DNA of 64,000 bases from Anthoceros angustus (GCA_010909165.1 VJWM01000309.1:1-64000); one strand, 5' to 3'; shown: positions 20,686 through 51,463, counted from the first letter of the stretch. Notes: generated by a model from the sequence alone, not told the origin. Numbers and translations are program-made.

Positions 20686-21594
20686 ATGCCTTCAGGCCTC
20701 CCGGATCCGCAAGTGGAACTATGCCCGCTCTGCTACACCGTTCTGAACGACAAGCTATGGGCCACGATGGGGGAATGCAGCCACTCGTACCACCTAAAAT
20801 GCCTGCTTTCGGCCTTCATCAGCGAGAACGCCCACAACTCCGAGTACGTGATCTGCCCAGCATGCAGGCTGGCAGTAGTAAGCGGAAGCCCAGCATCCGA
20901 GCGGCGGCTACGGAAGAAGCTCAGCATCGCAGACCCCCCACCGGAACTTCAGCACATCCACGCGCCTAGATGGAAGCTGAAGTCTCACCAGCTGGTCCCG
21001 GGGCAGGCCTACCACAGAGCCAAGACCTCCCCGCCCCGCGGGCCCGTCATGCTCTCCCAGGCCCGGCTTCCCGGCACCAGCGCCAGGCAACGCCTCTTCA
21101 GACAGGTGGTGGGCACCCCCAATATATTCGACAAGGGCGATGGAAGCTCGGCCAAACTTCCCCCGGGCCCGATCAAGCTGCAGCCCCGGATGCCCATCTC
21201 GGTATCGGAGCTCCTGGGCAGGCCCAGATCTGCACCACGCAGAATCGGACGCGCGCATGCGAATCGCCATACACGGGCTCTGACGCATTCTCGTTCCCAT
21301 CTGAGGCGGCCGTTTGCCCTGCAGGCAAGGCAGGGCCTCGGGAAGGAGTCCCCATGGGCTGATCCAGGGCCTGCTGGTGGACAGCCCGGGTGGCCTGCTC
21401 TCGGGGCGCCATTGTCGACGGGAGCAAGTGCCGGGACAGGCACCGTGCTGGCGCCGGCCGCCGCCAGGGCCAGGCCCAGGCACTTGTTCAAAATCCACCG
21501 ACCCATCAAGCGGCGAAACTATCTCGCCAGACACGCTGCCATCGCTCGCCGGCAACGAGCCGCTGCCCATCTACATACGCAGCTCGACCCTTGA
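20686..21594 (+). CDS. RING-H2 finger protein (one RING plus basic, Pro-rich tail)
   Basis: CPLC-x14-CSHSYHLKC-x17-CPAC; intronless. Confidence 0.7.
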   Translation: MPSGLPDPQVELCPLCYTVLNDKLWATMGECSHSYHLKCLLSAFISENAHNSEYVICPACRLAVVSGSPASERRLRKKLSIADPPPELQHIHAPRWKLKSHQLVPGQAYHRAKTSPPRGPVMLSQARLPGTSARQRLFRQVVGTPNIFDKGDGSSAKLPPGPIKLQPRMPISVSELLGRPRSAPRRIGRAHANRHTRALTHSRSHLRRPFALQARQGLGKESPWADPGPAGGQPGWPALGAPLSTGASAGTGTVLAPAAARARPRHLFKIHRPIKRRNYLARHAAIARRQRAAAHLHTQLDP

Positions 21595-23141
21595 CGAACG
21601 CATCATCTCATCAAACGTGTTTGAGAAACGGAACTTGGTTTATTTCCACTATTTTTTTCCTTTTTCTTGTCCAAGGCCACCAGGATTGTCACACAAAGTT
21701 TTATTGGTTTCCTATTAAGGACAGCGCAGAATCGCAATTTGTGGAAGAAGACGACTAGAGAAGTTACAGTACTATACAAATTATATCCATAGACTTCATG
21801 AGTTTATTTCTACTTTCTTTATAAAGTAAAAACTTGAAAGATTAGATTGATTATGAAAATCATGTATTATGAATGGGCTTAAGAGAGAGCATAAAGGACA
21901 TCTCCTATAGCTAAGAATTTTTTTAATGAATATTATTTTATAAATAATGATAGAGATAATATCTTATGATAAAATAGGAGAATAATAAGATTGAACTTTA
22001 TTAAGGAAGGAGAATCAGTCTATGAATTTAGGAGAACTAGTTTGTAGTCTTTGTAATGCAGCACAATAAGCAAGTTATCTCTTTCTCATTCTTGATATAT
22101 TTTTTGCCTCTTAGAACTATACTTGAGTACTCGGATTTCTAGCTGAACCAAGATATTACATATTTAAAAAACAATCAAAGATTGGAATTAAGTGAGAAAC
22201 CTAAACTTCTCAATTTGGAGTTAAGAGGATTTGGATGTGGTGTATTCAATCTATGTTGTCTCTTTTGTTACCAATATAACATAAATATATATTAATAAAA
22301 TTAATACATATATTATCTTTATGATCATCAAATTGAAGCATTGACATACTACAGTATTATTGAAAAAAATAGATAACTTGAATTTGAGTTTTTTCCTACA
22401 TCGATTCATTTTATGACAGTAGTCATATGTGAAGCTAATAACAAGAAAAACACTTAGAAAGATAATGTACATATAGCAAAGCGTACTACGAGTAGTGCAA
22501 GAACAAGTCTACTTCTTGTGTAATGCCCCTCCAAAGCCTCACAAAGCCGTAAGCTTGCCAAATTGTAACGTTTTGGAGTTGCACAATTAAGTACATAGAA
22601 TAACTATAATTCTACTAAAACAAAGAACTACAATACTACTGAAAGGATCCAACTCATTAGGCCTAATCTTTGGTAGCAAGCTTTTCTCACATACCTCTAA
22701 AACTTGTAAACAATCCTACTCTCGAGGCACCTTGTGTGTTTGTTGCTGGAGATTTCCCAAGCATATGTTCACTAGGACAATATGAAGGTTGCGCAAAAAC
22801 CCTATATGCAAGCTTAGTGAACCTACTCCACAAGCAATAATTATATATTTTAATTATCTACTTATAGTTCAATTGTCAATGGTCTAGTTGTGTGAATCAA
22901 ATTTCCCTTCTTAACCCTAGCCACTTTAAAGTATGCTGATTTGAGGTGCTAAAACAAACAAGGCTCCAAGATCTGCAAGCCTAGACGGTGTTAATGTGGG
23001 CGATCTCATAAGGTTCGGCTTTTGAACCTTCACAGACTCAGAAGCACGATCGGGCCATCCCTTCTGCACACCGTGTCGAATTCATGTTGACGCCGCAATG
23101 TTCAACGGTGCAATGTGATCGTTATTACAGAGACCTGACAC

Positions 23142-24509
23142 ATGACTCGGTTAGGAATCCGGTTACTAGACCCTCCCCCGGCGCATCCAGCTGCACGTGG
23201 CGGCCGATCGCGATCGGAGGATGCCCTCCCAGAGTCCGGGCCTGGCGACGGCAACGGCAACGGCACGGACGTCGACGAGGCCAGGGATGTGTGTGCCATA
23301 TGCCGATTGCTGCTGCAAGGGCAGCCCTGGATCAGGCTCCCGCCCTGCAGCCATGTGTACCATATCCAATGCGTGGGCAACTGGTTCCACGCCCGAGCTG
23401 CGGCCAAGCGCAGTTGCCCGCTCTGCCGGATCGTGTCTGCTCCGACGGGAGATGGACATCTAGACTCGCCAGGAAAATCGCCCATCAACGGTAGTGGGTG
23501 GGAGAGGCCGCAGAGCAGCCTCTGGCGGCTCTTGGACCAGATGGGCGGCAAGGTCGATCACAACGGGGCTGCAGATCTCGGTGTAAGCGAGGGTTCGTGG
23601 AAGGCAGCAGATGTAGAGCGTGACAGCGCCGAGGGCGAGGTGGATGAGGAGGCTGAGGAATGCTCCATCTGCAGGGAGGTGCTGGGGGCCGCGTACTGGA
23701 CCAGGGTGGAGTCGGCAGGGTGCGGGCATGGGTTCCACGTCGCCTGCGGTGTGCGCTTCTTCTTCAACCGGGGGGATGTGAGGCAGGACTGCCCGGTGTG
23801 CGAGAGGACGGTTTCCCCGCCGGATCTGCCGCCCGGGTTCGACTCGTCCTGGATCACCAGCAAAGACAGACACAGCAAGGAGATCCCCGAGGTGGTGCTC
23901 CGGTTCCTGCTGCGGTATCAGATGGTGAGCCGCCGGCCCGGGGACGGGCAGATCCGGGTGCCCCTGGACGAGGCGCGCGGGAAGTGCGTGGTCTGCAGGG
24001 CCGTGCTGGTGGGGAGATTCTGGGTGTGCATGCCGTGCTGCAGGAGTGGCGTGCATGTGAACTGCCTGGCGGTGTGGTTTCTTCACTGCGGGCCCGGGGG
24101 CATGGTGTGCCCCGAGGCGCAGTGTGGGGTGTCGGCGGTCGAGCCGCCGGTAGGTTGCGAGATGGAGGGGGGGGAGATGCTGAACCCCATCGCCAGCGCC
24201 CACGAGCTGCATCCTGGAGCGGCGTGGCTCGCCCTGTCGCACCTGCAACGGCCGGTGGCGCCCGATGATCCTTCTGTGCGGGCGCTTGTGATGGGGCCGG
24301 GGATCTCGGTTCCGTCCTGGATCGGAGGGTTGCAGGCAGAAGAGCGTGGTCCTGATTCTGAGATTGGGACGGAAGCGACGGAGCGTGGCGAGATTATCCC
24401 TGCCGTCTTGTCGCCCGAGCTGCCGGCTTCGAAGGATGGCGCGGAGAGCTCAGCGCCAGGTGCCGCCCGAGATCAGCCTTCCTCCAAGAGACGACGCGTT
24501 TCCGATTGA
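23142..24509 (+). CDS. Protein with three tandem RING-H2-like domains and a C-terminal NLS-like KRRR
   Basis: CAIC..CSHVYHIQC..CPLC; CSIC..CGHGFHVAC..CPVC; CVVC..CCRSGVHVNC..CPEAQC. Intronless, 455 aa. Confidence 0.8.
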   Translation: MTRLGIRLLDPPPAHPAARGGRSRSEDALPESGPGDGNGNGTDVDEARDVCAICRLLLQGQPWIRLPPCSHVYHIQCVGNWFHARAAAKRSCPLCRIVSAPTGDGHLDSPGKSPINGSGWERPQSSLWRLLDQMGGKVDHNGAADLGVSEGSWKAADVERDSAEGEVDEEAEECSICREVLGAAYWTRVESAGCGHGFHVACGVRFFFNRGDVRQDCPVCERTVSPPDLPPGFDSSWITSKDRHSKEIPEVVLRFLLRYQMVSRRPGDGQIRVPLDEARGKCVVCRAVLVGRFWVCMPCCRSGVHVNCLAVWFLHCGPGGMVCPEAQCGVSAVEPPVGCEMEGGEMLNPIASAHELHPGAAWLALSHLQRPVAPDDPSVRALVMGPGISVPSWIGGLQAEERGPDSEIGTEATERGEIIPAVLSPELPASKDGAESSAPGAARDQPSSKRRRVSD

Positions 24510-26017
24510 GATGGCTAACTGCTGTCCTTCCCGTTCGCGTGAACGCGGCTTCCAACTGCCGTCCTTCACGTTCGCGTGAACGCGGCCTCAACTGTCGAGA
24601 CGTTCGATGATAACGTGGAAGTGAACTGCAAGATTGGCATCTCCGGTCGCGTGACCTCTTACGGCGCTGGCTTCCGTAGCGAGAGTTTTGTGGGTTTGAG
24701 TGCCATCGTGATGACTTGCTGGATATGTGATTTTTAGTTTGTCTAAGGGACAATTTGATCTCATAGCACAGAATTCTGCAAATTCTGCACACAACTTGAA
24801 CACATAGCATACAATTTTTAAGAACTTTGTGGACTCTAGAAACTTTGCAGAATAAAGATTGAACTCTCAATCAAACCAAGAATAAAAATCTATTACAAAA
24901 AAAATAAACACTTCGCATAAAATTCCTAAGAGCTCCATCATCAAGTCTAGTCATGCAAAAGATTCACGACAAAGAAAAACGTATTCATTTACACATACCA
25001 TAGAGAAGAATACTATGTTTCTACTTGTATCGCATAATATATCTCAAAACCAATCAAGATTGAAATGAGAAACCTAAACTTCTCTATTTGTAATAACAGA
25101 TTCTAGTGCCTTTCTGGTCGTTTTCGGTTCTTGTTCTTTATATCTAGTTATAGGTTTTGAACAACATGTATCTATATCATCTTCATATGATCAAACTTGA
25201 ATTTTTTATTCAAGATAAAATATTTATTTTTTCTTTACTTATTCATTAGGTGTTCATGGTATTACTTCATATATAAAGCTTGAACGAAAGAAAGCAATCA
25301 TGATTTTTGGAAAGAGAAAATTCATTGTATATGATGTTTGGTCCATCTTACAAGTCTAAATCATAATTATCTTTATTTTTGTACATATTAACACAATACA
25401 ATACTTAGGGCTTAGTTCAACTTGGATAACTTGACATGCTTGTAACATTGAGTACCTGCTAAGTATTTTATAGGATTATATAGAATCAATATTCTACATC
25501 GGTCCTCTTGGTTTTACTTGATTTTACCAAAGCTTTCGGAACAAGATTCAACATACATAGCACCATATTGAATATTGTTTGTAGGATGTGTATTTTTAGT
25601 ATAATGTAGTATCATTTGCATGATACATTCCAATAAACCCAAAACTTCATTTGAAAAGAAGGTGTACATAACGATCCTGATGTTTATGTTTCTCGATTGA
25701 AGAGACACCTTCATGTGAGGCCTAAGTATCTGTGCAATATAGTACTGCTTGTTTGCATATGGTTCAATATGAACATGAACCTATTCCAATTCATGTAGAG
25801 AGGAATTCATTTGAGTTAAGATTTTGAAGGTGAGAGGGTCTTTTCTATGGATCTGAATAAATAATAAATATAATTAGTAACTTCTACTTACAAGATAAAT
25901 AATTGATTTAATTTAAAAATAAAAAAGAAAATGGGATGAACCCACTTGTTAGAATAGGAACTCCCTATATCTCAAGCAGGTGGAGATACTATGTAGTGTA
26001 TGATAATGCTAACCATA

Positions 26018-26110
26018 GACTAGAAGAAGAAGAAGAAGAAGAAGAAGAAGAAGAAGAAGAAGAATTTTATTGAAGTCCACTAAGGACGGATTTCCGCCTC
26101 CCGACTAGAA
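26018..26110 (-). mobile_element. Extremely 5'-truncated LINE/SINE insertion with (TTC)14 tail and 8-bp TSD
   Basis: (GAA)14 followed by TTTTATTGAAGTCCACTAAGGACGGATTTCCG, almost identical to the LINE end at 36111-36153. GACTAGAA lies on both sides (26018 and 26103). Confidence 0.8.
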
Positions 26111-26237
26111 TCATGAAGGTTGTCCTTGAGACCCCTAATTGGTAATGGTTATCAAAGAGACTCAGGCTGGCATCCTCAATCAATCAACGAAGCCGTTGTG
26201 AAGGAAAAGAGAAGACTTGAACCACAGGGCTGAAGAG

Positions 26238-26960
26238 ATGGCGGCGAGTGGTGCAAGAACAACCTGCTTCTTGTGCAATTCCCCTCTACGGACCGACCAA
26301 GCCGTAAGCTTGCCAGATTGTGAAACTCAACACGTTCAGAGGTTCCACTTCTCATGTTTGGCAAACCATTTCTCCAACATGTATCAGTACGGCACGACAT
26401 GCGATTTCGCGTGCCCAATGTGTACCGTGCCCGTGACCGGGATCGGTGAGAAGATCACCTCCCCCAAGGGCAGCCTGACATCATTCAAACAGATCGAAAC
26501 AGTGAGGAACCCTACATTCCACCAGATATGGCCTTACGTCTTCCAGCCCATACAGGAGATGAGAGACCGGGAGGCGAAAGTGATCATGAAAGGAGCCTAT
26601 TCTCCACCCAACCTCAAGGCCCTGTCACGGGTGATTCTGCCGCCCGATGGTAACCCAGAAATGTCTTATCCCTGCAGCATGTGTAACAAGGTGCTGGGAT
26701 CTATGCTGTGGGTTTGCTTCGATACCTGCGGCCATGCCTTCCACGTCTCCTGCCTTGCCCATAGTATTGTCCAGCGTTGGCTGCAGCGCTCGTCAAGGTC
26801 AAGGACGATCCGCTGCCCCTTGTGTCCGGACTCTTCTGTAACTGTCCCCAGGGATATAGTCCGGCTCAAAACAAGCCTCGGGCAGGGTGTGAGCCATCGT
26901 GAGAACCAGGTGTCCATCAATTCCGTCTACCATTGTGCCATGTTCTTGGCTGGGCGCTAG
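26238..26960 (+). CDS. Protein with two RING-H2-like domains
   Basis: CFLC..C..FHFSC..CPMC and CSMC..CGHAFHVSC..CPLC. Intronless; ATG at 26238. Confidence 0.75.
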   Translation: MAASGARTTCFLCNSPLRTDQAVSLPDCETQHVQRFHFSCLANHFSNMYQYGTTCDFACPMCTVPVTGIGEKITSPKGSLTSFKQIETVRNPTFHQIWPYVFQPIQEMRDREAKVIMKGAYSPPNLKALSRVILPPDGNPEMSYPCSMCNKVLGSMLWVCFDTCGHAFHVSCLAHSIVQRWLQRSSRSRTIRCPLCPDSSVTVPRDIVRLKTSLGQGVSHRENQVSINSVYHCAMFLAGR

Positions 26961-31347: not shown

Positions 31348-31449
31348 ACTAGCTCACTAGTTTATCTAGAGTCACTTAATAGTATTTAAACACAATTTTG
31401 ATGTATTCATAATTATCATTAATCAAGTATGTAACAAGAGCAGTTTATG

Positions 31450-32345
31450 CTTGACTTCCCAAGTTTCCTACGCATGGTATCAGAGCCCATGATGGGAATC
31501 GATCCACATTCCACAGCATGTGAATGAATGCCATGCTATGCAAGTGTGGATGCTTATGATGTTGATGATGCGCGGCACCGGATTATCTATATTTTCACAT
31601 CATATTAAAACATGACAAGAAGGAGAGGGAACGGTTCCCAACGTCGACTTCTTCCTGACGAGCGAATTCATGGACAATTTCCCCCTGCTTCAACGCAAGT
31701 TTAGGTGCCCCAGCGTCGCAATCAACCTCCGCATCACCCCCTCCTACAATTTGGTACAGAGGGACAGCTTTCAAGAGACTTCCAAGCTCCTGTCCGTCGG
31801 CAAAATCCAAAGTCCATAGCTCATGCAAATGCGCCAATTTTAGGAGCTATACATCGCATCAACACAAGGCTGGATGCAATCACTCTGCTTCTGCAGACAT
31901 TATATGATCATTTGTTCGAGTGCAAACAAGAAGCTCTTGCCTCACGGCCAGACTTCAGCCCACCGCTACCCGGCAAGACTCTACCCGGCAGATGATAGAA
32001 AGGCCATAAATTATTTTAATATTATATATTAAGGGTTTTATCTAATGATTAAACTTCATTGAGTGACTCCTTTATCTTTAAGAGATATTTGAAGCTATTA
32101 TTTCTCCTTCTTGATGTTGTAGCTTGTATCCAAGGCATCATAATATCTTGGATCTGCCTATAACGACGAGATGGCAGAAACAACCCCCTCTACCAATTCC
32201 ACGATAACTGATGTGTACCATACCACACAGAGCAGTGCTGACTTTAGAGAGGGACCATTTTAATGGCACCAAGTATAACATTTGGGCTATAAGAATTAGA
32301 GCGGCTCTCGATCTTGAAGACATGTGCGAATTTGTCTCTAGAAAG
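31450..32345 (+). mobile_element. Degenerate Ty1/copia 5' end: LTR terminus, tRNA-iMet primer-binding site and gag fragment
   Basis: CA followed by TGGTATCAGAGC at 31475; FNGTKYNIWAIRIRAALDLEDMCEFV (about 32260-32340) matches the copia gag N-terminal motif. Confidence 0.6.
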
Positions 32346-33575
32346 AAACAAGACCCCTTTACTAGGGACCTCCGCATCAGGAACGGTTTTTGTAAGATGG
32401 GCAGACATTGCATACTTCCCTTAAGTGGAACGAGCAATCGCCAAACATGAGCGGGTACCCAGGTACTATTATCACCACTCCTTCTAATAATTATTGATAG
32501 GACAAATAATATGCCGTGGATGACCCCAATAATAGGCTAACCCACTAGGATAGATGATAGACACTTAAAGAAACGCAAGGTTAAATATGTATCATCTACG
32601 TGCATTGGTAACATATGATCACGATGCTGTTAAGAAAGAGAGCAGTGGTCCCGTCTTCTCGGCACAGCTCGACCGCCTGCCTTTGGATGTCGCGGAGTTC
32701 CCAGAAAAGCCACCCAATGATCGCCGGCCAGCGCCGGGTGAAGACCGTGCCAGCCTTCTCTTCCATGAGACGCATTTTAGACGAGGAAAGAGCTCGGCTA
32801 ACTACCGTCTTTCACGTTCGCGTAACTGTCGTCAACCGTCGAGATCCGCACACACGAGGAAAGAGGCCCCTTCTGAACATGTGAAGGGGTCTCATTTCAC
32901 ATTCGGCACGAACTTCTGCAGGGAGCTCGACTGCGCCAGTGCCTGGGTGCCCTGCCATCTTCAACTATATGTGCTATGAGTCAGTGTAAAGTATGGATGA
33001 AACATGCTTCTCCCATAGTTCTCCGAACAGGAAACGACCACCTCCACCTGAACAAAGACATTGTTGGTTACGGAGATGATTACAAACAAGCTTTCATTTA
33101 TAAGAGAACCTTTAAAGAAATTGCAGAGCCCCAGGCCACTTCAAGACGTGCAAGGGAAGAAGAGAGCCCACCAGGAGAGCAGACTGTACAAGCCAGCTTC
33201 ATGGCAGTTCGAAATCATGGACAAACCCATCTGCATATCTGCAAGCTAGACGATAGTGACCCATATTCTGCCAGCGTGATGTTTAGGCCATAATGGACAT
33301 CCCCTCTTGAGCTTGTGCGATCCTGGGAAGATCGTGTCCTCAGCCCGGCCACACACAAACTTCTTGTGACGATTTCCTCATTGCATCCTGGCTCTGGTGG
33401 TTTTCGATCCTTCAGACTCGACTGAAGTTACATGAATTTTAGCAGCCTTTTTTCGTGCTAGCCTTCTGGCCAAGTCAAGAGATCCAAGCTTCAATGAGAA
33501 GAAGGCAGTTGCTCACATGGAGAAGCAGAAAGGATAAGGAGCAAATTGCAGCGGAAAAATGCAGGCCGTGCACGT

Positions 33576-35573
33576 TTAGAGACGGAAGGACTGCAACAAC
33601 ATATTGCACCTTTGTTTCCCCTCATATGAACTGGAGGAATATGAGTTGTCCAAGGGTTTGCAACGCTGATGAGGTTGATTGCTCTGTCGAGCAGGTCCAA
33701 TTTTGGGCCAAGACCTGGGAAAATACGAAATGTTGAAATTTATTGGAAGCATATGTGCATTGACAAAAAATCACTGCGGGCAAGGTTGGGGATGCCATAC
33801 CGGTTTGTCAAGTCAATCCTGTATGGCACACCATTTTGGACGATGGTTGTGGCAAGCCGTGAGTTTCCAGCTAACAGCTCCAATTCCTGGCCAACATACG
33901 GAGTCTTCTGTGCATCGACATCACACACAACTGACCTTATGCGCGGCTTGTGACGATCCAGAATGACCTGTTCAACAAAGAAGTCAGCTGTGAGTGATAG
34001 GAGATTAATGACCTCACATCTCACCTGGTACACAGAACATGATGGACAGACCAGAATCACTATGCTGGAACCGCAGAAATACTAAGTGCTGGTACCTGTG
34101 CAATAACATGGCGGAAGACGTAGTGTTCATCTTGCAAATGCAGGCGGGCTATATGCCCCAACTTGTCATATGTTGTCGGTACAGCCATACCCACAGGGAG
34201 CAGGTCCTGCAAGATCTGCACAGAGTCCACAACACCAAATGGGAAATACACGCTTGGATGCTCCAAAGGGTCCAAGGGAATCTAGATTGTATATCCTTGC
34301 CCAACAATAAACAATCGATTTTCTAGCCAGCCGTGAAGGAAAGAGTCGTCAGACCTCATCCACTGCCCAATAGTCATACGAAAGAACCAATCTTGTCTGG
34401 ATAAGTTGCCGTGTTGTGAGTCCTCTCTTGTTTCCAGCTGCAACAGCCATCTGGCGAGCAGAGCGCACCGAATGCAGAGCTGGAGTTGTCAGATGACCAG
34501 AAAACTTGGAGGCCTACCTGACATGAAAGCACAGCTCATAACCGTCCCCTGGTTCAGACCTGAAGAGCCATGGGAAGTCCGTCCAAGGCTTTCCCTGCAA
34601 GCCCTTCATCCAGTAACAACAGTCTCGTTGATCCTTGAAATCTTCTCAACTGTTTTCCTTGCTCTAACAAACCTAGAAAGTCTCCTATTGCTCCATGATC
34701 CTTCCCAACTCCCCACCCATCCTCCACAACTTCCACAACCACAGCTTTCTCCTCCCACATGCTTCTGCTCTTCCCCCTGGCTTCTACCATGTTAGATTTG
34801 TCGTTCTGCAATTTTTCCGCAGAGTCTTTCTTGCTGTAGATGAGAGACCGTGCTGCACCTCTAGGCCTTGATAGTTCCTCAAGATGTGGAAATCTTTCCT
34901 CCTTCTTCCTCCGCAGCCTGACAACCCCAGTCCTCAGCGCTGCTTCACTGCCAACATCATCATCCTCAAAAACAGCCTTTCTGACGGTCTCAGAAACAGT
35001 TTCCTCTTTCCTCTCGCCATCCCAAAACAGGCCTTCCAAGTCCTCGTCAACTTCATCCCCGGTAACCCTTGCAAGGTTCTTGATACGAGGCCAATTCAAC
35101 AGATGCCCTCGAAGCTGATATGCCAACTTATCACCCTCGTCTGACGGAACTCGCAAGGCAGCAATATCATAAACCCTGGTAAACCCAGCCCTGTCAATGT
35201 CAGCTCCCTTGACGTATCTCGGCTTCGTCAGGAGATGGTTGTAGCTGCTAATGTCGTACACGCTGGTTTCCTCCTCCCCGTCTCGTTGGATTCTCTGCCA
35301 CCTTTCCTTTTTGGTATCTGAAGCACATCCTCTGCGGCCCCGGCTCAGAGACGGACCCAGATGGAGACCAGAGAACGCACAGACTATGTTGGCATGGTGC
35401 CGCCGAGTTCGTCTGCGTGAAGAGAAGAGTCCTGTTTTTGGAGGAATTCCTCGACCCAAGCGCAGCCCTGATTGTTCCCAAATCTGTATACCAAACTTTT
35501 GGAAGGAAGACAGAGCCTTTGATTCGGGTGTTGGGTTCCAGAATGCAGCTCTGCAGTGGCCTCCTAACATCAT
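33576..35573 (-). CDS. TRM5: TRM5 (tRNA m1G37 methyltransferase, organellar-type) paralog lacking the SAM-binding C-terminal domain
   Basis: Five exons spliced in frame: FTRVYDIAALRVP..LRGHLLNWPRIKNLARVTGDE..RLLLLDE; LVLSYDYW; ILQDLLP..GHIARLHL; VILDRHKPRI..LELLAGN; then RSWPKIGPARQ and a stop. No FAGVGP motif follows. Confidence 0.8.
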
Positions 35574-35655
35574 GCCCAGCAGATTTCTACGAGAGACGGA
35601 TCTTGCAAGCCTCGAATTTGAGATTCTAAGCCCTATTTTCGTCAGGGGTCGACCA

Positions 35656-36000
35656 ATGTGAAGTTCGGGCGAAGTTGAGGACTGGACATGCAAAGGGAAT
35701 GTGATCCATGTGAAAGAGACCTTGGCTGCAAAAGGGACCTTGGTCTTGCACCATCGTGCACAATTGTGCACTACAACAAAGTGCCAGAAAGGCGGGAAAT
35801 GGTATGACAACTTTGAGGATTGTCTCATCTCCGTGTCACCCAAGTGCAATGTGGGATGCCCCTGTTTCGCTATCTTGTTCATGTGGTACAGTAGTGATGT
35901 AGAATCGTTCTAAGTTGTCCAGTTTAGAACCAGTGAAGCTCGTGCTTTCCTGCATTTCCCCCGACAAGTTGGTTGTGAGTGTGAACAAGCAAAGCACGGT
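35656..36000 (+). pseudogene. ELP6: Decayed 5' copy of ELP6
   Basis: Colinear with 50276-50693. Codon 2 is TGG->TGA, exon 1 has a deletion, and the copy stops shortly before the LINE tail at 36111. Confidence 0.85.
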
Positions 36001-36110: not shown

Positions 36111-37683
36111 GAAGAAGAAGAATTTTATTCAAGTCCACTAAGGACGGATTTCCGTCATGGGACTGATATGACAGATATACAAAGAGACTATAATGAAATT
36201 TAACTACTATTCTGAGTCTGGCGTAGAGAATAGTGCTGTGAGGCATAATCAAATATCCGGCAAGTTGAGAAGTTGAAGTTGGTTGGTCCTCATTTCCCAC
36301 ATTTGTTTCAAGCAAACTCCTGCAATAATAGGGTCAGGAAAATTGAAAAAACCCCTGAGTGAAGATCGAGCTGTTGTAAATAGATTGATAAATGTATGCC
36401 TGATATCTTCATATATGGGACAGAGGAAAACAAAGTGTTCCTCATTCTCAACATCCCTGTTGCATAACCTGCATATTCGGGTCTCCTTAGGTGGCTTTGG
36501 ACGTAGCCATCTATCAGTCTCAACCCTGAGATGGTGGGACCCCACCCGAAGATGACCCATAATCATCCTAAGCTTGAAGGACACATGGGTGCGAGATAGA
36601 GAGGAAGCATTGGTTTCCCAGAGTTGGAGAGGATACGAAAAAGTTGTTTGTAAGTTTCTAGCTTAGTGGGTAAGGGAGAGATAGGAGACCGTATAAGACA
36701 AATAGGTAGTTTGCAAATCAAGGCGGATGGACTTATTCGGAGGAGGGGAAGGAATTGAAGAGGGGTGGGCGGAAGACTCTCGGGGGAATCCAAACTTCTC
36801 GGCCGGAAGAAGGCGAGCATACCAGGTCTTGTTTCGAGGAGGCTAACTTCCGGGATGATTGGAATGCAAGAAGGAGGTATGAGGGAGTGGAGGTGGGGTG
36901 GTTAGAATGGGCTTCTTCTAAAGAGTAAAGGCGGTATAGGAAGTTGGTTAGGCGAAATAGACCCTCAAGTTCAAGCGGGAAAGTGGCAAACTCTGCAAGA
37001 AAGATGGCAAGGGGGACAGACTTCTTACATGCAATGTGGGGCCGAAGAAAGGATGTCTGAACCTCCTCCACCCTGCACCAGTCGTCGAGTGAGAGGTAGG
37101 GTCCCCAAAACTCGGCCACATACATAGCCGAAGGAATCACAACTGTGTTGAAGAGCCATTACTGAGTGGGGATGTCCTTGATGTGCATCCTAGAGCACTG
37201 TCTCCGAACCCCACATGCAGATGCCACACCTTTGACAATGCGAGCAGAGGTAGAGAGCTTCCATTGGAGTGTCGGGCCATAGAGAGTGCCACCTAGGTAG
37301 ACATAAGATCGAACAACCTCCACATGCTCACCATAGTAGAAGAACTTCAAATTGTCTTTGAGCGTCGGTTGAAAAACATGACCTTGGTCTTCTTCAAGTT
37401 GACCTCCAAATCTCTTGCCGCGCAGAAGCGGGACAATGTGTCTAGTTGCTGTTGGAGGCCCTCAGGAGAGTGGGACAAAAGGGCAATGTCATCTGCATAC
37501 AAGAGAATAGCTATATACCAAGGAGAGGAGGCAACCAGGATCCCCAGACTCCGCAATCCAAGATTCCAGCTCATCAATGTACAGGTCAAATAGGTTAGGA
37601 GAAGATGCATCTCCCAGCCGCACCCCCATATTGCAAAGCAAATCCAGAAGGTCAAAAGCAGCATAGGGTGTGCGGATCCTAGC
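36111..37683 (-). mobile_element. 5'-truncated LINE (RTE-X/L2-like) with RT, C-terminal Cys/His motif and (TTC)n tail
   Basis: GVRLGDASSPNLFDLYIDEL; ILLYADDIALLS..LQQQLD..LEVNLKKTKVM; VVRSYVYLG; LRVGSHHLRVET..RICRLC..ENEEHFVFLCPIY. Contains frameshifts. Confidence 0.9.
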
Positions 37684-40600
37684 CTTCACCAGCGTTCAGA
37701 CAACGGCGGTGAATTCACATTAAACGAATTTCAGGCCTATTGCAAGGACGCAGGCATTGGGAGACAACTTACTGTTGTTTATACACCGCAGCAAAATGGT
37801 GTTGTTGAGCGCTTGAACCTGACTTTGCAGGAGATGGTTTCATCTCTGCTTCATCAAGCTTCTCTTCCTCTCTCTTATTGGGCAGAAGCCCTAATGACAG
37901 CTGTGTATCTCCGCAACAGATTGCCTACAACTGCTGTGCCTGGAGAGACCCCTTATGAAGCCTTCTATGGCCGGAAGCCAGCTCTCCTACATCTTCGGAC
38001 TTTCGGATGTGTTGCATACGCTTTCATCCCTAAGACCCAGAGACCCAAGTTAGTTGCTAAAGCCAAGAAATACCTTATGATAGGCTATACTGAAGGTATC
38101 AAGGCTTATAAACTTTATGACCTACCTCAGAACAAGGTGGTCTATGCACGCAGCGTGACTTTTGATGAAGGTCGCACTTGGCAGCTAGTGGGAGCTGTTC
38201 CCAACGAGGAGGCCCTTGACATTTCTGCCCTGCCTGATGTCACTGTTTTTCCTGACACTGCCCTTGAGGAGGTTGCTCCTGCAGGGGGGAAAGAATAGCA
38301 AACTGATGAGCAGGAGCAGGAGGTTGCACATGATGCAGAAAACTTTGCTCACTTGCAGCCGCAACCTCCTCCAGCTGATGCAGAACCTGACCTTTTACCT
38401 GATTCCATTCCCGATTCTGACGAGGATGCAGCTGCTGACGATGCGATCCTTTCGACATCGATGCAGAAGGTGAACCCGTGCTTTAGCCTTTGCCACCTGA
38501 ACCTGGACAGCCTCCACCACCTGAGCGCGTTATCCTGCAAGAGAAAGACAGGCACCAGACTATTACCAGTCACAGGACTTCAGAAAACCAACAGCTAATG
38601 CAGCTACTTCTCTGGATCTAATTGAACCTCAATCCTATGAAGAAGCTCCTGAACCTCAATCCTATGAAGAACCTCAATCCTATGAAGAAGCTCTTAGCCG
38701 TCCTGATGCTGCTGAGTGGAAAAAGGCTATACAATCAGAATATGATTCATTAATCAAAAATGGGACATGGGAACTTGCTAAGTTACCTCCTGGACCAAAG
38801 GTGGTATCATGCAAGTGGGTATTTAAATTAAAGGTGAAGGCAGATGGAACATTTGACAGGTACAAAGCACGACTCGTAGCTCGTGGTTTTTCACAAGTGC
38901 CTGGTCTTGATTACTTTGAGACATATGCTCATGTTATGAAGCTGGCCACTTTCTGCACAATTTGTGCTCTGGCAGCATATCAGGATTACGAGTTAGACAT
39001 GTTCGATGTAAAGACAGCGTTTTTGCATGGCAAACTCGACACGGAAATCTATATGCAGCAACCACCAGGATACGAAGTTAAGGGCAAAGAGGATTACGTC
39101 TTACGCCTGATAAAGACCCTGTATGGGCTGAAGCAGTCAGCTCTCGAGTGGAATGCTGTCATGGATGAAGAGTTGCGAGCATTAGGTTTTTTGAAGTGTG
39201 TCTCAGATAGCAGCTTGTATGTTTACAGATCCGATGATGTGGTATGCTATCTGGCAGTATACGTGGATGATTTGATCTTATCCTACAATAGCCCCACGTT
39301 CATCACCAAAATTAACAAGCTGTTAGCTACCAAGTTTGAAATGACGAACCTTGGAGCTTTACAAAGCTGGCTGGGCGTTCTTATTCAAAGGGATAGGACA
39401 AATTGATCTATATCCCTTACCCAGCCTCGCTACCTGTTAGAATGTGCTAAACAGCTTGGCTTGAAGGATGCAAAACCAGCAGCTACCCCACTGCCTTGTG
39501 GACTGAAGTTTAGCAAGTCCATGGGTCCTGAAATACAAAGCGAGAAAGACGAGATGAGGTCATCTTCTGTGAAGGGCGTTGGCAACTTATCTATCACCAA
39601 CACAACACGACCTGATGTTACCTACACCACAAGCGTACTCTCCCAGTATCTTGAAAACCCTGGACAAACACATTGGACAAGTGTTAAGAGAGTCATCATG
39701 TATTTAAAAGGAACATCAACTATTGGGGTCAAGTTCAAACACATTCCGGGTGTGCCACTGGAGCTGGATGTGTACACTGATTCTGATTATGCAGGAGATG
39801 TTGATACACGAAGATCAGTTTCAGGATATGTTGTCATGGTAGCAGGTGGACCTATCTGTTGGTCCAGTAAAAGCAACTGCCACATCAAGCAGAAATTTGA
39901 GTATCGTGTTCTCACGGCGTGACCAAGGAGATTGCTTGGTGTAAATTGATGTTCAAGGAACTCGGGCTGCCACTCCCAACCTGCACCACAATAAAGACTG
40001 ACAACCAGGGGTCAATGAACTTGGCACAAAATCCCGTTTTTCACTCTCGCACGAAGCACGTTGAGGTGGAATATCACTTCATCAGGGACCTCATCAAGTC
40101 TGGGCAGATCATGCTGGAATATATACCAAACGCAGAGAATCCAGCAGATGTGTTCACTAAATCCCTCAGCAGGGATGTACACACAGACACATGAAAAGTC
40201 TGGGCATGGGCAGCCATGCAGGCTATCCAGAGGCCCCACCTACCAAGACCTAGCCTAGCAGCTAGGTGCAGCCCCAGTCATTGTTGTCATCGTCTGAGTC
40301 ATGGTTGTCATAGTCTGTGGGAGACCTAAATGATCCCCTGCTCACCGAGGAAGTAGACTCAGAAATCTTTTCCCATGAGGCAGGGCTATCAGACTTGGAG
40401 TTGAATGTTTCCGAACCAGAACGAGGGGAGTTTTTTGCTTTCCTCTCCTGGTAGGAGACTCTCTCCTTCGTCTCCTGGCTAGCTTCCTCTTCTAGACGGT
40501 CCTCAGGTCCTATTAGAACGAGTGGGAGGACATCAGGGAGTTAGGATGGCAACAGACATTGACAGGTTATCAGGGGGGTTGAAAATATGTTGCTTAAAGC

Positions 40601-41643
40601 ATAAACGGCAACAGGGAAGATTGCCAAAAACAGGTTAGGCAACTTACTATAATAGTTGATGACATGATCTTCAAAACCTGGACAATTCTGGATGCGAACT
40701 CGGACCATCTTCAGCCCTGAAGCAACACACCTATACCAAACAGGGCTTCCAGGCCATCTAGCTGTTCCAAGGGTAACAATCCTTGTTTCAGACAGTACTC
40801 CTCTTGGCTCAGGAAACTTGGGTGGCGCTGGAGGATGTGGCTCGAGGGAGGCGTACTCGAACTCTCCCCGCTCACACCTGCGGGCATCGAAAGAAGCCCT
40901 TGAGAAGGTCTGCCTCACAGGTCCTGGCGGTGAAGAACGGGGAGATGGTGCTCCCATGTTAGGCTGGCCGTCAGCACTTGGTGTGACTTGGCCAAGGCAC
41001 TGGCGCCGTTGCTCAAGCACCACTCTGGTTGTTCCTCTTGGTCTGCCTCTAGGGCGACCAGTTCCTCTTGATGTCCCAGCACCGACAGTCCCCTTCGCAG
41101 CAACACTCTGAGTCATGGCTGAAGGGCAGGCAGTCGTTCTAGCTGAGGCAACGAACCTCCCCAGAGCATCTCTCTGGAAGATCCAACGCTTGGGACTTGA
41201 GGAGAGTTCTTCAGACTCCGAAGAAGACATACCGCCCAGTGCTGTGAGTTTACGCCCCAGAATCCAAGAGAGAATGAAAGCCAAAACGTAAAAACAAGCT
41301 AACGTGCACGCAGCGGACCTGAACGGGGCAGTCTTCATGTTGTGCGGTTCCATTGCTATCCAGCGAGGTCCAGCTGCCACATCCGGTACACACTGTGTAG
41401 AGTAAGCTGGCTGGTTGCGAACTCTTGGTCTAGCTGCCTACCCAAGACCCTCGTGGAGCTGGAGACAGTCCTTTGCGTAATGATCAACAAGTGGGAGTAA
41501 AGGAAGATAGTGTGTCGATTCCTTGCTTAGGGTTTCGTTATATCCACATATATAGCTGGCGTGTACGCGTATATAGTTTAATGTTTAGCCACTTACCTCT
41601 TCCTAGGGTTACGTCTCTAGCCCAAAGGTCATGTCCTTTCACA
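37684..41643 (+). mobile_element. Ty1/copia retrotransposon, 5'-truncated: integrase, RT, RNase H, long 3' region, PPT and probable short 3' LTR
   Basis: DNGGEF..YTPQQNGVVERLN; CKWVFKLK..RYKARLVARGFSQVPGLDY; DVKTAFLHG; YVDD; YTDSDYAGD; HSRTKHVEVEYHFIRD; ADVFTKSL. AAGTGGGAG PPT at about 41489 and an LTR-like segment at 41498-41643 ending CA. Several stops and frameshifts. Confidence 0.92.
40262..41230 (-). CDS. Antisense two-exon gene inside the copia 3' region, encoding an AT-hook protein (about 276 aa)
   Basis: Exon 1 is 41230-40648. Intron 40647-40510 has a GTAAGT donor, CTAAC branch site and TAG acceptor. Exon 2 (40509-40262) is open in frame to TAG. Motifs RDALGRF and GRPRGRPRG. Confidence 0.6.
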
Positions 41644-42429: not shown

Positions 42430-42768
42430 ATGGAGAAAATTTTCATTATTGTGGGACCTATGTTTAGTGGCAAGTCAAGTTACTTTTTAAGAAGCATATA
42501 ATTAGAACGAGAAGCAGGTAGATTAACAATCTTAGTTAAGTCTGACAAAGACAATAGATATGCAATCAATGCAGTTGTAACACGTATAGGAGAATAATTA
42601 AATTGTCTAACTATAACCGAGTTGAAGAGCTTAAAGTCAATAATTAGTGAAGATCAATTTGATAGGTTAGACACCATTGGTATAGACGAAACGCAATTCT
42701 TTTCTGATTTGATAGAATTCTGTGAAGAGTCAGCCAAGAAAGAAAAGAAAATTATAGTGGCGGGATAG
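42430..42768 (+). pseudogene. AT-rich intronless thymidine kinase (TK1-type) fragment
   Basis: Translates as MEKIFIIVGPMFSGKSSYFLRSI*...LVKSDKDNRY...IGIDETQFFSDLIEFCEESAKKEKKIIVAG*. Two internal TAA stops; truncated just before the expected LDG motif. Confidence 0.88.
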
Positions 42769-45265: not shown

Positions 45266-45629
45266 GCTTCTTCAGCAAATGGTTGTAGCTGCTAATTAAT
45301 GTTGTATACGTTGGTATCCTCCTCCCCATCTCGTTTGATTTTTTGCCACTTTTCCTTTTTATGATTTTAAGTACATCCTCTGTAGCCTCGGCTCAGAGAC
45401 GAACTCAAATAGAGATTAGAGAACACAAACTATGCTGGCATGGTGACATCAAGTTTGTCTACATGAAGAGAAGGGTTGTTTTGTTTTGGAAGGAAATCCT
45501 CGACCCAAGCGCAGCCCTGATTGTTCCCAAATCTATGTACCAAATGTTTGGAGGGAAGACAAAACTGTTGATTCACGTGTTCGATTCCAAAATGAAGCTC
45601 TGCAGTGGCTTCCCAACATCATGCCTAGC
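45266..45629 (-). pseudogene. Third, decayed partial copy of TRM5-like exon 1
   Basis: Colinear with 35222-35580, for example CCTCGACCCAAGCGCAGCCCTGATTGTTCCCAAATCT; AT-shifted with indels. Confidence 0.85.
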
Positions 45630-46205
45630 AAAAGAAGAAGAAAAATTCATTGCAGTCTATTGAGAAAGGATTTCTGTTATGAGATTATCTGATCTTAGTA
45701 AGAAAAGACTAAGATCAAGGTCATAATCCAGAACTCTTCGGCTTGGCTCACAGGACCAAGAGTATGCAACCTACACAATATTCTGTTCTAAGATTTCCTT
45801 CAACCGTGAGAAATCCGTTGCAAGCCTCCGTAAAAAGATATTTTTGAAGAAAAAATGCTTTTATTGTTCAATAAACTAAAGATGAGCTCGGCGTACATTA
45901 AGCAAGAGAAGTAGACTTATCATACATCTAGTAAGAGAAGTGCAATATCAAAACTCATGTATAAAATTGGCATTAAGAGTCGGTTGAAACATATGTAATA
46001 ACCTTAAATTATATTTATTATTGAATAGTTTAGAATTATAAGATAATAATAATTAAAAATAACATTATTTTTCTCAGAAACAGTTACAAATACAATACTC
46101 ACCTCTAGATCGAGTATATGATAATTTGAAATCGATACATCAGACTTGTGAGTTCTATATATGTGAGCATAGTAAGAGGAAACATTCAATTATTTTTAAG
46201 TTTTC

Positions 46206-48703: not shown

Positions 48704-48987
48704 ACGAGAACAGAGATAAACACTAAGCCCATTGAAGAACTAGAAAGGTAACTGTGCACCCTCATGTTTCCTGCAACCGAAGCAAAGCAGCATGCCTAGG
48801 TGATTAGGAAGCGAAGACTCAGAGATACTATCTTCAGATGGAGCAAAGTCTGCATGGAAAACAGCAACGTTTGCACGGGTTGATTGTGCTGAGCTGTAGC
48901 CTGTAAGTGTCCCAATTCTCAAATTCAAGCCCTACAACTCCAACTGCCAGATAAACACTTCCAGAGACAGTACATCGGTCCCTCCTA

Positions 48988-50200
48988 TATGCTTCTGCTT
49001 TCCCCCTGGCTTCTACTATGCTAGATTTGCCCTTCTGCAACTTTCTCCTCACTGTCTTCCTTGCGTAGATGAAAGCCCGTGCTGCACCTCTAGGCCTTGA
49101 TAGTTTCTCAAGATGTGGAAAACTATCGTCCTTCTTTCTTAGCAGCTGCTTTTGTGCGCCCCTTGGAGTAGATACACTTGTGCTGGTGAAATCCACACTC
49201 CCCCCGAATAAAATTTCAAGACACTAGTGGCCTCTGCCTGGCATTTGCTCTCTCATGCGCAGGGTACAGTACTATGAAGGAGGGAAGCCAAAACCTGCTT
49301 CTTTAGGTCTGCAACCAGCAACGTGCAGCACCTTCCTAACTTGGGCAAAGAACGAGATTACAGGCGATCATTATCTGGAGTGACAGCCAAGTCTAGCTAG
49401 CCAGTGTATAAGAGGGGATGCCCTCATTTGCTGATCAAGCGGGAAGCAACATTTCAGTCTCCACTTTTTTCTCTGAGTGCTGCCAGTCTTTCGTTGAGGA
49501 TTGCCGTGCAAGGGCCACCCTCCACATTGCTGTTGCAGTCCAGCAGAGTCACGCCTGTCTCGATATCTGTATGTATGTGTAGTCCATGATGTGCTTTGTC
49601 CACTGAAGTTGTTGTTGCAGTCCAGCAGAGTCACGCCTGTCTCGATATCTGTATGTGCGTGTAGTCCATGATGTGCTTTGTCCAATGAAGTTCCTGTTGC
49701 AGTCCAGCAGCGTCACGCCTGTCTCAATATCTGTATGTATGTGTAGTCCATGATTTCCGTTGTCCACTGAAGTTGCTGTTGCAGTCCAGCAGAGTAACGC
49801 CTGTCTCCATATCTGTATGTACTCGTAGTCTATGATTTGCTATGTCCACTGTCTGCCTCAATACATGTATGAGTAGGGATCTTCGAAATTGGTAGAGGAT
49901 GTATGGGATACACGAGACCATGCCAGAAATCCATCCTTTGGGTAATATCACAAAGAAGAGCATGGGTTGCTGTGTCCGTACACAAGGCCAATTCAGCAGA
50001 TGCCCTCGACGCTGATGTGCCAACTTTTCACTCTCCTCTGGCGGAACTCGCAATGCAGCCATGTCGTAAACCCTGGTAACCCCAACAAATACCTGGGGAG
50101 GAAGACGGGACCCAAATACCTGGGTAGGAAGACAAGACCTTTGATTTTGGTGTTGGGTTCCAGGACGGAGCCCTGCAGTGGCCTCCTGACATATGCTCAG
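48988..50200 (-). pseudogene. Fragmented TRM5-like copy head-to-head with intact ELP6
   Basis: 48988-49144 matches 34758-34914 (FPHLEKLSRPRGAAR). 49985-50080 matches 35087-35183 (ALRVP..RGHLLNWP). 50125-50200 matches the start-codon region. The pieces are separated by deletions and an 82-bp repeat array. Confidence 0.85.
49531..49850 (+). repeat. 82-bp tandem repeat x4
   Basis: TGTTGCAGTCCAGCAGAGTCACGCCTGTCTCGATATCTGTATGT... at 49531, 49613, 49695 and 49777. Confidence 0.92.
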
Positions 50201-50275
50201 CAGATGTCTAGGACGAGAGACCGATCCCGCCTTTAATTTCAGATCCTAAGCCCTATTTTCGGCAGGGGTCCAACG

Positions 50276-51463
50276 ATGTGGAGTTTGGACGAAGCTGTGG
50301 ACTGGACAAGCAAAGGGAGTCTGATCCTTGTGAAAGATACGTTGGCTGCCAAAGGGACCTTCGTCTTGCACCATCTGCTTAAGAGGCTCCTGAGAAATCC
50401 AGCAAATCCACAGGACCGGCGTGGAAGCGTGAAGGTTGTGTTTGTGGGGCTTGCCGATACTTTTGGGCACTACAACAGAGTTGCCAAAAAGCAGGTAAGG
50501 ATCAGTGCGACAACTTTGAGCTTTGCTTATCTCCATGTCTCCTAAGTCCAATGTTGGAAGAACAAACCTGTGTCTCTGTCTTGTTCATGTGGCAGGGGTG
50601 TAACTTGTCCAACTCTAGAGACAGTGGAGCTGTTGCTTTCCTGGAATTTTCCCCAGACAAGTTCCTGGAGAGTGCGAAGAAGGAAAGCACGGTGACACGT
50701 TCCTTGCAGTAAGTGGCATGCATCCTGATCTCGCCCCGATGTTTCTAATGATGCCATCGCCTCAGACCAGACCCGTGCTGCATAAACGTGCAGGAACCCT
50801 CTCTTCAACCTGTATAGCAGAATAAGACAGGCAGTAGGAAGGCTCCTTGTAGGCCACACCGAACACATATGTGTAGTGATTGATGATGCCTGCTTGCTGG
50901 AGGTAGCGGCTGCCGGCTCGCTGCACCATGTGCTAGACTTCTTACACTACTGTCGAGCACTATCCTGTCAGCAGGAGCAAGTAAGTAAATCCCATGTCCA
51001 GACTCCAGTTCAGAGTGGATTTTATAACCCTGACTGCAAAGTAGTATAACTGGTACACCTGGCTGATGGATGTTGGAACCTGTGTTTGCAGGGTTGCTCG
51101 CTGGTGGTGCTTGTTCACAATGACATTTATGACGAATCAGACCCCTTCTCCTTAGTTCATGCGTTGGAGTCTGTCTCTGATGTTGTGCTGAACGTGGAGC
51201 CTTGCAGCAAAAATATATCAACTGATATGCGAGGCGTGGTAGGGTATCTTTGCCATGGCCCTTCATTTTATCTTGATGCTGGAGTGGGGAAAGGAGAAGA
51301 TGTCTGAACCCTGTGTTGTGTGCAGCTAACTGTTATTCATCGTGCCATCCCAGCTGGTGCAGACGATGTTGAGGAGAAAACTGGTTGTACCCAGGAGGTG
51401 AGGAGAGTCCAAACAGTTCGGTTTGAATTGTTGGAAACTGGTGTGTCCTACACTGAAGTCTGA
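50276..51463 (+). CDS. ELP6: Elongator complex protein 6, five exons
   Basis: LILVKDTLAAKGTFVLHHLLKR..FGHYNRVAKKQ-GCNL; VVIDDACLLEVAA..VLDFLHYC; CSLVVLVHNDIY..SDVVLNVEP; LTVIHR..VRFELLETGVSY*. Confidence 0.88.

What the first reader, a model, noticed from the sequence alone, without database searches (positions are those of the whole stretch)
40262..41353. Copia retrotransposon carrying an antisense, intron-containing AT-hook gene between pol and the 3' LTR
The ~1.3 kb between the RNase H end (about 40194) and the PPT (about 41489) holds a minus-strand gene. Exon 1 joins exon 2 through a canonical 138-bp intron (GTAAGT...CTAAC...TAG), giving about 276 aa with no stops although pol is decayed. 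It has two short basic motifs (RDALGRF and the AT-hook GRPRGRPRG), a small central segment with Cys/Trp, and an acidic tail (DYDNHDSDDDNND). Upstream in-frame ATGs (41353, 41338) would add a hydrophobic helix. An antisense intron would survive retrotransposition because it is not spliced from the genomic RNA. Antisense extra ORFs are known mainly from some gypsy lineages, so a spliced one in a copia is unusual. It might be an element-encoded chromatin-binding or anti-silencing factor (inference).
Basis: partly seen in the sequence, partly recalled or inferred. Interest (0 to 1): 0.78.

Follow-up and report, generated by a model that had tools for sequence, protein, structure and literature searches.

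The report
Copia retrotransposon with spliced antisense gene
A broken Copia-type jumping gene in a land plant carries, backwards between its enzyme gene and its end repeat, a long reading frame that is likely a two-exon extra gene for a predicted DNA-binding protein, a layout familiar from Gypsy-type elements but rare in Copia.

Summary
The sequence features are real. A minus-strand frame of 298 codons (40541-41437) is beyond chance (at most 1 of 2000 simulations). A 138-nt GTAAGT...TAG segment resembling the host's introns joins it to a second exon: 276 aa from ATG 41230, or 317 aa from 41353. The spliced stop lies 8 nt from pol's likely stop. The AT-hook-like motif is unlikely from composition (P 0.0009). 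The element is a decayed Copia whose 5' half is cut off by a LINE, so its LTR has no partner. The lack of stops is weak evidence of selection (P 0.11-0.20). No homologue, second copy, RNA run or fold match was found, so conservation, splicing and function are untested. Best reading: an element-borne antisense accessory gene (the aORF-3R layout of Grande, Retand, Ogre), likely for a nuclear DNA binder acting on the element. That layout is rare in plant Copia. This scan already noted it in other Copia copies of this genome (e1-10596204) and in fungal elements. A chromo-shadow-like fold for the central domain stays a lead that my tests neither supported nor excluded. New variant of a known kind.

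The parts
36111..37690 (-). LINE-type retrotransposon fragment that cuts off the Copia element inside its integrase (context, not part of the element)
   Evidence: RVT_1 E 5.7e-9 and zf-RVT E 4e-4; GAA-repeat end shared with other window sites; a relative's integrase matches the window only from 37696
37690..40253 (+). Decayed Copia pol: integrase 3' part with SH3, RT, RNase H; in-frame stops at 38296 and 39404, frame changes near 38500, 39910 and 40180; likely natural stop 40251-40253
   Evidence: Pfam SH3_retrovirus E 2.6e-25, RVT_2 E 7.3e-54; three-frame stop map; RNase H 36-40% identical to loci L001-L003
40262..40509 (-). Predicted exon 2: acidic, serine-rich tail and stop codon
   Evidence: Open frame of 92 codons 40262-40540; 19 D+E and 17 S in 81 aa
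40510..40647 (-). Predicted 138-nt intron, GTAAGT...CTAAC...CTGAT...TAG
   Evidence: Length, GC and T content within the range of 10 host introns; donor rank 6 of 83, acceptor rank 22 of 123; not seen in RNA
40648..41230 (-). Predicted exon 1 coding part from the third ATG (194 codons)
   Evidence: Inside the 298-codon frame; best of six frames under a pol-trained codon model but not under a host-trained one
40649..40810 (-). Small central domain with Cys, Trp and Tyr; three or four predicted beta strands
   Evidence: Low-confidence single-sequence models, mean pLDDT 35 and 49; no family or fold match
41033..41059 (-). AT-hook-like motif GRPRGRPRG
   Evidence: Position; P 0.0009 for a basic-flanked RGRP in 100000 shuffles of exon 1; no Pfam AT-hook hit
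41153..41173 (-). Short motif RDALGRF, preceded by a basic KR pair
   Evidence: role unknown
41231..41353 (-). Optional 41-codon N-terminal extension with a 19-residue hydrophobic segment (41258-41314)
   Evidence: In-frame ATGs 41353 and 41338; Kyte-Doolittle mean 2.24
41489..41497 (+). Polypurine tract candidate AAGTGGGAG
   Evidence: Read from sequence
41498..41643 (+). Candidate 3' LTR, 146 nt; ends in CA, starts TA rather than TG; 6-nt terminal inverted repeat; holds a GTAAGT donor (41596) and two TATA-like boxes (41575, 41554) on the minus strand
   Evidence: AAAGGA 41499-41504 against TCCTTT 41634-41639; GC falls from 0.41 to 0.27 at about 41650; donor is the top-scoring of 83; boxes; no 5' partner

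Best explanation
The Copia element likely carries its own antisense accessory gene, predicted to be transcribed from the 3' LTR side, spliced through the 138-nt intron, and translated into a nuclear protein that would bind AT-rich DNA and tune the element's own transcription or chromatin state. Shown: the Copia pol, the long antisense frame, the intron-like segment, the tail-to-tail stops, the AT-hook-like motif. Inferred: antisense transcription from the LTR, splicing, nuclear location. The proposed action is that the AT-hook grips the minor groove of the AT-rich LTR while the small beta domain and acidic tail contact host chromatin proteins. The intron persists through replication because the packaged RNA is the opposite strand. 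My odds by step: real element-borne gene 0.75, spliced as drawn 0.65, DNA-binding regulator 0.45, anti-silencing specifically 0.15-0.2.
For: Frame length beyond chance. The spliced stop sits 8 nt from pol's likely stop, so the gene fills the whole pol-to-PPT gap. The intron matches 10 host introns in length (138; host 88-168), GC (0.44; 0.40-0.48) and T (0.36; 0.31-0.40); 2 of 10 host donors are GTAAGT and 3 of 10 have CTGAT 21-33 nt before the end; a consensus-like intron arose in 2.4% of 5000 simulations. Exon 1, the domain and exon 2 are each the best of six frames under a pol-trained codon model. Exon 1 GC3 is 0.43, against 0.39-0.59 in 4 pol pieces and 0.46-0.86 in 7 host genes. AT-hook-like motif P 0.0009. 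Precedent: Grande gene23 is nuclear with its own promoter (PMC7264820); HTLV-1 hbz is a spliced antisense gene starting in the 3' LTR (PMC3185765).
Against: No homologue at E<=1 among 755 candidates or at E<=0.001 among 1.84 billion representatives. The acceptor is TAG (9 of 10 host acceptors are CAG) and ranks only 22 of 123; the intron pattern was chosen after seeing the site. Under a host-trained codon model exon 1's frame is not the best of six. The synonymous-codon test is weak: 2 of 4 pol controls scored host-like, exon 1 scored near zero and exon 2 host-like. An intact frame is expected 11-20% of the time from decay alone. Pfam does not call an AT-hook. The LTR has no partner in the window.
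Confidence: 0.55

Rival explanations
1. The gene is element-borne but unspliced: one exon from ATG 41353 to the stop at 40541-40543 gives a 270-aa protein with hydrophobic segments near both ends, a membrane-anchored accessory protein in the spirit of env-like ORFs.
For: The frame reads 35 codons into the supposed intron. Two 19-residue windows score 2.24 and 1.78 in hydropathy. An antisense extra ORF with a transmembrane helix is reported for a sunflower Athila element (PMC11728184, passages).
Against: The second segment lies in the T- and C-rich intron-like stretch, which yields hydrophobic codons by composition. The 92-codon downstream frame and the 8-nt tail-to-tail fit would be accidents.
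Confidence: 0.15
2. The segment is a host gene fragment, or a separate insertion, captured backwards in this copy or a small subfamily; a backward capture would also keep its intron.
For: No second copy is available to show that it is a family feature. Exon 2 codon use scores host-like. The intron is host-like.
Against: No host homologue or Pfam family was found. The frame fits the pol-to-PPT gap with 8 nt to spare. Third-position composition resembles pol more than host genes.
Confidence: 0.15
3. The region is non-coding or makes only a regulatory antisense RNA; the open frame reflects stop-poor composition and the intron is a chance match.
For: TpA is depleted in exon 1 (observed/expected 0.40). 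The ESM recognition values, 1324 and 1373, are below the level most known families reach, though the tool says this does not show whether a gene is real. Non-coding antisense transcripts of retrotransposons are known (PMC7264820).
Against: Markov models that keep di- and trinucleotide content gave 298 codons in at most 1 of 2000 trials. The motif and codon-frame signals point to the same frame.
Confidence: 0.1

Closest known systems
Antisense additional ORFs between pol and the 3' LTR (aORF-3R / eORF-3'R) of plant Ty3/Gypsy elements: maize Grande gene23, rice RIRE2, Retand, Ogre (PMC7264820, parts 1-2 of 3 read; PMC6317226, passages and two supplements; PMC11963269, passages)
   Same: Same position and orientation; length over 250 codons; orphan-like protein with predicted nuclear or DNA-binding features.
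   Different: Host element is Copia; the pol-to-LTR gap is about 1.2 kb against 2.9-6.6 kb in Retand; no Transposase_28 or plant mobile domain; a predicted intron and an AT-hook-like motif, which I did not see described for these in the passages read.
Extra 3' ORFs of plant Ty1/Copia, chiefly SIRE env-like eORF-3'F (PMC6317226, Additional file 5)
   Same: Copia element with an extra ORF between pol and the 3' LTR; an optional hydrophobic segment.
   Different: SIRE's ORF is sense in 74% of elements and antisense in 1%. 13 of 16 Copia groups list no extra ORF; the Bianca and Ikeros rows give 2-6% in columns I could not assign. The word hornwort does not occur in that paper's main text, and its method finds unspliced ORFs only.
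HTLV-1 hbz (PMC3185765, passages)
   Same: Architectural analogue: a spliced antisense gene starting in the 3' LTR that encodes a nuclear regulator of the element's own sense transcription.
   Different: A retrovirus with a bZIP protein; no sequence relation is claimed, and nothing of this function is shown here.
HP1-family chromo shadow domain (resemblance recalled from memory and suggested by note e1-10596204)
   Same: A segment of about 55 aa with predicted beta strands followed by a hydrophobic-aromatic C-terminal motif, next to a basic DNA-binding stretch.
   Different: No Pfam, PDB sequence or fold match; no chromodomain in front; the would-be last helix spans the splice junction and could not be modelled in its spliced form.

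Membership tests
Ty1/Copia LTR retrotransposon | Copia-type RT (RVT_2) | tested here: met
   E 7.3e-54; 5596 of 6113 candidates passed E 0.001, and all 120 listed carry PF07727
Ty1/Copia LTR retrotransposon | Order integrase, RT, RNase H | tested here: met
   rve weak and SH3_retrovirus at 37594-38295, RT at 38525-39403, RNase H at 39925-40170
Ty1/Copia LTR retrotransposon | PPT next to a 3' LTR with TG...CA ends | tested here: inconclusive
   PPT-like tract, CA end, 6-nt inverted repeat and GC step present; the start reads TA
Ty1/Copia LTR retrotransposon | Paired 5' LTR, PBS, gag and target-site duplication | tested here: inconclusive
   5' half replaced at a LINE junction near 37690; the PBS at 31475 follows an unrelated LTR end (score 32 against a shuffle mean of 29)
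aORF-3R class | ORF between pol and 3' LTR, antisense, at least 250 codons | tested here: met
   298 codons stop to stop, 270 from the first ATG
aORF-3R class | Present and conserved in most copies of the family | not testable with these tools
   No genome held; no copy in the window or in metagenome contigs
aORF-3R class | Transcribed in antisense; nuclear product | not testable with these tools
   No sequencing run was listed
Retand TRP28 / Ogre plant-mobile-domain aORFs | PF04195 or PF10536 domain | tested here: not met
   0 Pfam families for the 270-aa frame at E<=1 and for four sub-pieces at E<=10
SIRE env-like ORF | Sense orientation behind pol | tested here: not met
   The frame is on the minus strand; the longest sense run in the region is 147 codons
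AT-hook motif | RGRP core with flanking basic residues (definition recalled) | tested here: met
   GRPRGRPRG at 41033-41059; P 0.0009 by shuffling; Pfam's model did not report it
Plant AHL (AT-hook nuclear localized) genes | PPC/DUF296 domain after the AT-hook (definition recalled) | tested here: not met
   No Pfam family in either exon at significance
Chromo shadow domain | Sequence profile match | tested here: inconclusive
   No Pfam hit and no PDB sequence hit at E<=10; the filters drop weak matches and only the unspliced piece could be given
Chromo shadow domain | Three-stranded sheet plus C-terminal helices | tested here: inconclusive
   Strands predicted, helices not; pLDDT 49; best Z 2.9 with no chromo fold listed
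Chromo shadow domain | Homodimer that binds partner peptides | tested here: inconclusive
   The complex job gave no answer; see Tried and rejected

The most novel reading that the evidence does not exclude
A lineage of seed-free-plant Copia elements encodes a spliced antisense mimic of heterochromatin protein 1: an AT-hook that finds the element's LTR joined to a chromo-shadow-like domain that captures or poisons host silencing partners. It would be a first anti-silencing protein in Copia retrotransposons, and with the upstream start it could be membrane-anchored and tether copies to the nuclear envelope.
Probability: 0.12. Interest if true: 0.82.

Novelty: new variant of a known kind. Interest (0 to 1): 0.5.

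Why it matters
The function of antisense extra genes in LTR retrotransposons is an open question; a 2020 review calls for a search for antisense and spliced transcripts (PMC7264820). Plant Copia elements are treated as almost free of them. A compact, intron-bearing case in a Copia lineage would show that the layout arose again outside Gypsy and that unspliced-ORF surveys can miss or truncate such genes. The short protein with a recognisable DNA-binding motif offers a direct test of whether these genes regulate their own element.

Tried and rejected
No genome was held, so no family copies or dN/dS. Sequencing runs: none was listed, so no junction test. Homologue searches for exon 1 were blank: word-index search, phmmer on representatives, metagenome contigs (137 pattern matches, 0 confirmed), ESM Atlas twice, PDB sequences, Pfam. 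Exon 2 was searched only against Pfam (one hit at E 0.18, dismissed), the window and three loci. Structure: two single-sequence models of low confidence; Foldseek on PDB and viral structures gave nothing at E<=0.001 (a Tudor domain at E 1.8 and a chromodomain at E 8.6 are noise level); VIA-align best Z 2.9. Homodimer job: no answer, score 0.02, not used as evidence. Three distant Copia loci (32-35% identity) show no match to either exon (best E 1.8). Rejected: the PBS and gag at 31475-32450 as this element's 5' half, since the LTR sequences do not match. Rfam gave 0 matches. The bacterial promoter scan was not relevant. The synonymous-codon test did not separate pol from host reliably. No Copia lineage was assigned, as no labelled reference sequences were at hand. 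Literature searches listed no paper describing a spliced antisense ORF or AT-hook ORF in a Copia element; the library lacks most subscription papers, and Additional files 1 and 3 of PMC6317226 were too large to read and may list Copia eORF-3'R cases. PMC12477816 and PMC13547354 (passages) showed no such case in the passages returned.

Full report
Setting. The window is from a land plant: it holds a PPR gene with E and E+ motifs, ATP synthase delta and a root-cap gene, and an OSCA channel gene whose best relatives are land-plant proteins.

The element. 37690-40253 is a decayed Copia pol: integrase 3' part with SH3 (E 2.6e-25), RT (RVT_2, E 7.3e-54) and RNase H (36-40% identical to three distant loci). 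It has two in-frame stops and three frame changes. The two closest RTs are 72% and 74% identical and unnamed; the rest are at 51% or below. On the left the integrase ends at a minus-strand LINE fragment, so gag, PBS and 5' LTR are missing. A PBS at 31475 follows a sequence that does not match the candidate LTR (score 32, shuffle mean 29, maximum 49) and belongs to another element. On the right, AAGTGGGAG (41489-41497) is followed by 146 nt that end in CA, carry a 6-nt terminal inverted repeat, and give way to AT-rich DNA (GC 0.41 to 0.27). This is a plausible 3' LTR, unverified for lack of a partner.

The antisense frame. 40541-41437 on the minus strand is open for 298 codons. Simulations that keep the region's composition reached that in 0 of 2000 and 1 of 2000 trials, and the longest antisense run over pol is 80 codons. 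Removing 40647-40510 joins it to a second frame that stops at 40262-40264, giving 317 aa from ATG 41353 or 276 aa from ATG 41230. After a frame change near 40180, however, the sequence reads a Copia-like ending comparable to that of loci L001 and L002 and stops at 40251-40253. The two stops are then 8 nt apart, so the spliced gene fills the pol-to-PPT gap almost exactly. I take this as the best single sign that gene and element evolved together; it is an inference from one copy.

The intron. I mapped 10 host introns in the OSCA gene. The candidate falls within their range for length, GC and T content; it has a longer AG-free stretch (81 nt against 15-57) and a CTGAT at -27, as 3 of 10 host introns do at -21 to -33. 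With matrices from those 10 introns the donor scores 5.8 (host 0.4-8.4; rank 6 of 83 GT sites) and the acceptor only 1.2 (host -5.3 to 12.7; rank 22 of 123). A consensus-like intron appeared in 2.4% of 5000 simulations, with a pattern chosen after seeing the site. 171 GT-AG pairs could join the frames, so frame alone proves nothing. No run was listed for a junction test. The intron is likely, not shown.

Start and promoter. The top-scoring donor of the region lies inside the LTR at 41596, and TATA-like boxes lie at 41575 and 41554 on the minus strand. The donor is upstream of the boxes in the antisense direction, so they imply different transcripts. Which ATG is used is open; the 19-residue hydrophobic segment (hydropathy 2.24) is present only with the first two.

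Selection and origin. The intact frame is weak evidence: at pol's rate of breaks an ORF of this size stays intact 11-20% of the time. Under a codon model trained on pol the proposed frame is the best of six for exon 1, the domain and exon 2; under a host-trained model it is best for exon 2 but not exon 1. A synonymous-codon test was unreliable, with 2 of 4 pol controls scoring host-like. Capture of a host gene is therefore disfavoured, not excluded.

The protein. Exon 1 is basic (28 K+R, 15 D+E in 194 aa) and exon 2 acidic and serine-rich. A basic-flanked RGRP core arose in 0.09% of 100000 shuffles, though Pfam reported no AT-hook. No homologue was found. Single-sequence models are poor (pLDDT 35 and 49) but both place strands in the segment 40649-40810. 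Note e1-10596204 reports spliced antisense genes in other Copia copies of this genome and a possible chromo shadow domain. By eye, and from memory of HP1, this segment has a similar spacing of hydrophobic and aromatic residues. Pfam, PDB sequence and fold searches gave no support. They cannot exclude it, given the weak models and a last helix that would cross the splice junction. Sequence look-ups among earlier findings found no look-alike of this DNA, its RT or its protein, so this is at most a distant relative of those copies.

Mechanism. Most likely the gene is transcribed from the 3' LTR side, spliced, and its product binds AT-rich DNA such as the LTR (58% AT) and acts on the element's transcription or chromatin through the beta domain and acidic tail. 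Everything after the sequence anatomy is inference. The intron survives because the packaged RNA is the other strand. Rivals are an unspliced membrane protein, a backward host capture and a non-coding region.

Comparison. Antisense ORFs in this position are described for Grande, RIRE2, Retand and Boty, with unknown function and a nuclear product in Grande (PMC7264820, parts 1-2 of 3). In the survey of PMC6317226 (passages; Additional files 4 and 5) they occur in 86% of Retand and 60% of Ogre elements but 1% of SIRE; 13 of 16 Copia groups list no extra ORF, and two rows give 2-6% in columns I could not assign. Retand's are marked by Transposase_28 (PMC11963269, passages), which is absent here. 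HTLV-1 hbz is the closest worked-out analogue of a spliced antisense gene from a 3' LTR (PMC3185765, passages). My nine literature searches listed no spliced or AT-hook antisense ORF in Copia. This scan has noted the same layout in other genomes, mostly fungal and including a fungal Copia; those notes are unchecked leads.

Verdict. A real feature, probably a real element-borne gene, and a new variant of the known antisense-ORF layout. Function is untested and the evidence rests on one decayed, truncated copy. Interest 0.5; the HP1-mimic reading has about 12% probability and would deserve about 0.8.

Noticed in passing
window 42433-42765 (+): Broken, intronless, AT-rich thymidine kinase gene (Pfam TK E 7.8e-10 for the third piece) with two in-frame stops, cut off near 42765. 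It lies in the AT-rich stretch right of the LTR and is unlike host genes in composition, so a foreign origin (large DNA virus or bacterium) is possible.
   Followed up: partly
window 31348-32500 (+): Head of a second Copia-like element: LTR end in CA, tRNA-Met PBS at 31475, a 96-codon frame at 31705-31995, then a decayed gag (DUF4219 E 0.087). This recalls the 5' extra ORF layout of note e1-10596204. No pol match follows it.
   Followed up: partly
window 34554-35909 (-), with partial copies at 45266-45630 and 48981-50694: A 451-codon frame with 72-87% identical partial copies elsewhere in the window. It recalls tRNA methyltransferase 5 from memory; Pfam gave no hit.
   Followed up: no
window 20395-26960 (+): Three long frames with RING-finger matches in tandem.
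   Followed up: no
window 15182-18500 (+): Host OSCA/CSC1 channel gene with 10 introns of 88-168 nt, used as the intron reference.
   Followed up: yes
window 59869-61650 (-): A 593-codon leucine-rich-repeat frame with no sign of introns.
   Followed up: no
L002 3850-5754 (+): A distant Copia locus has a 634-codon sense frame right behind pol, with no Pfam match.
   Followed up: partly
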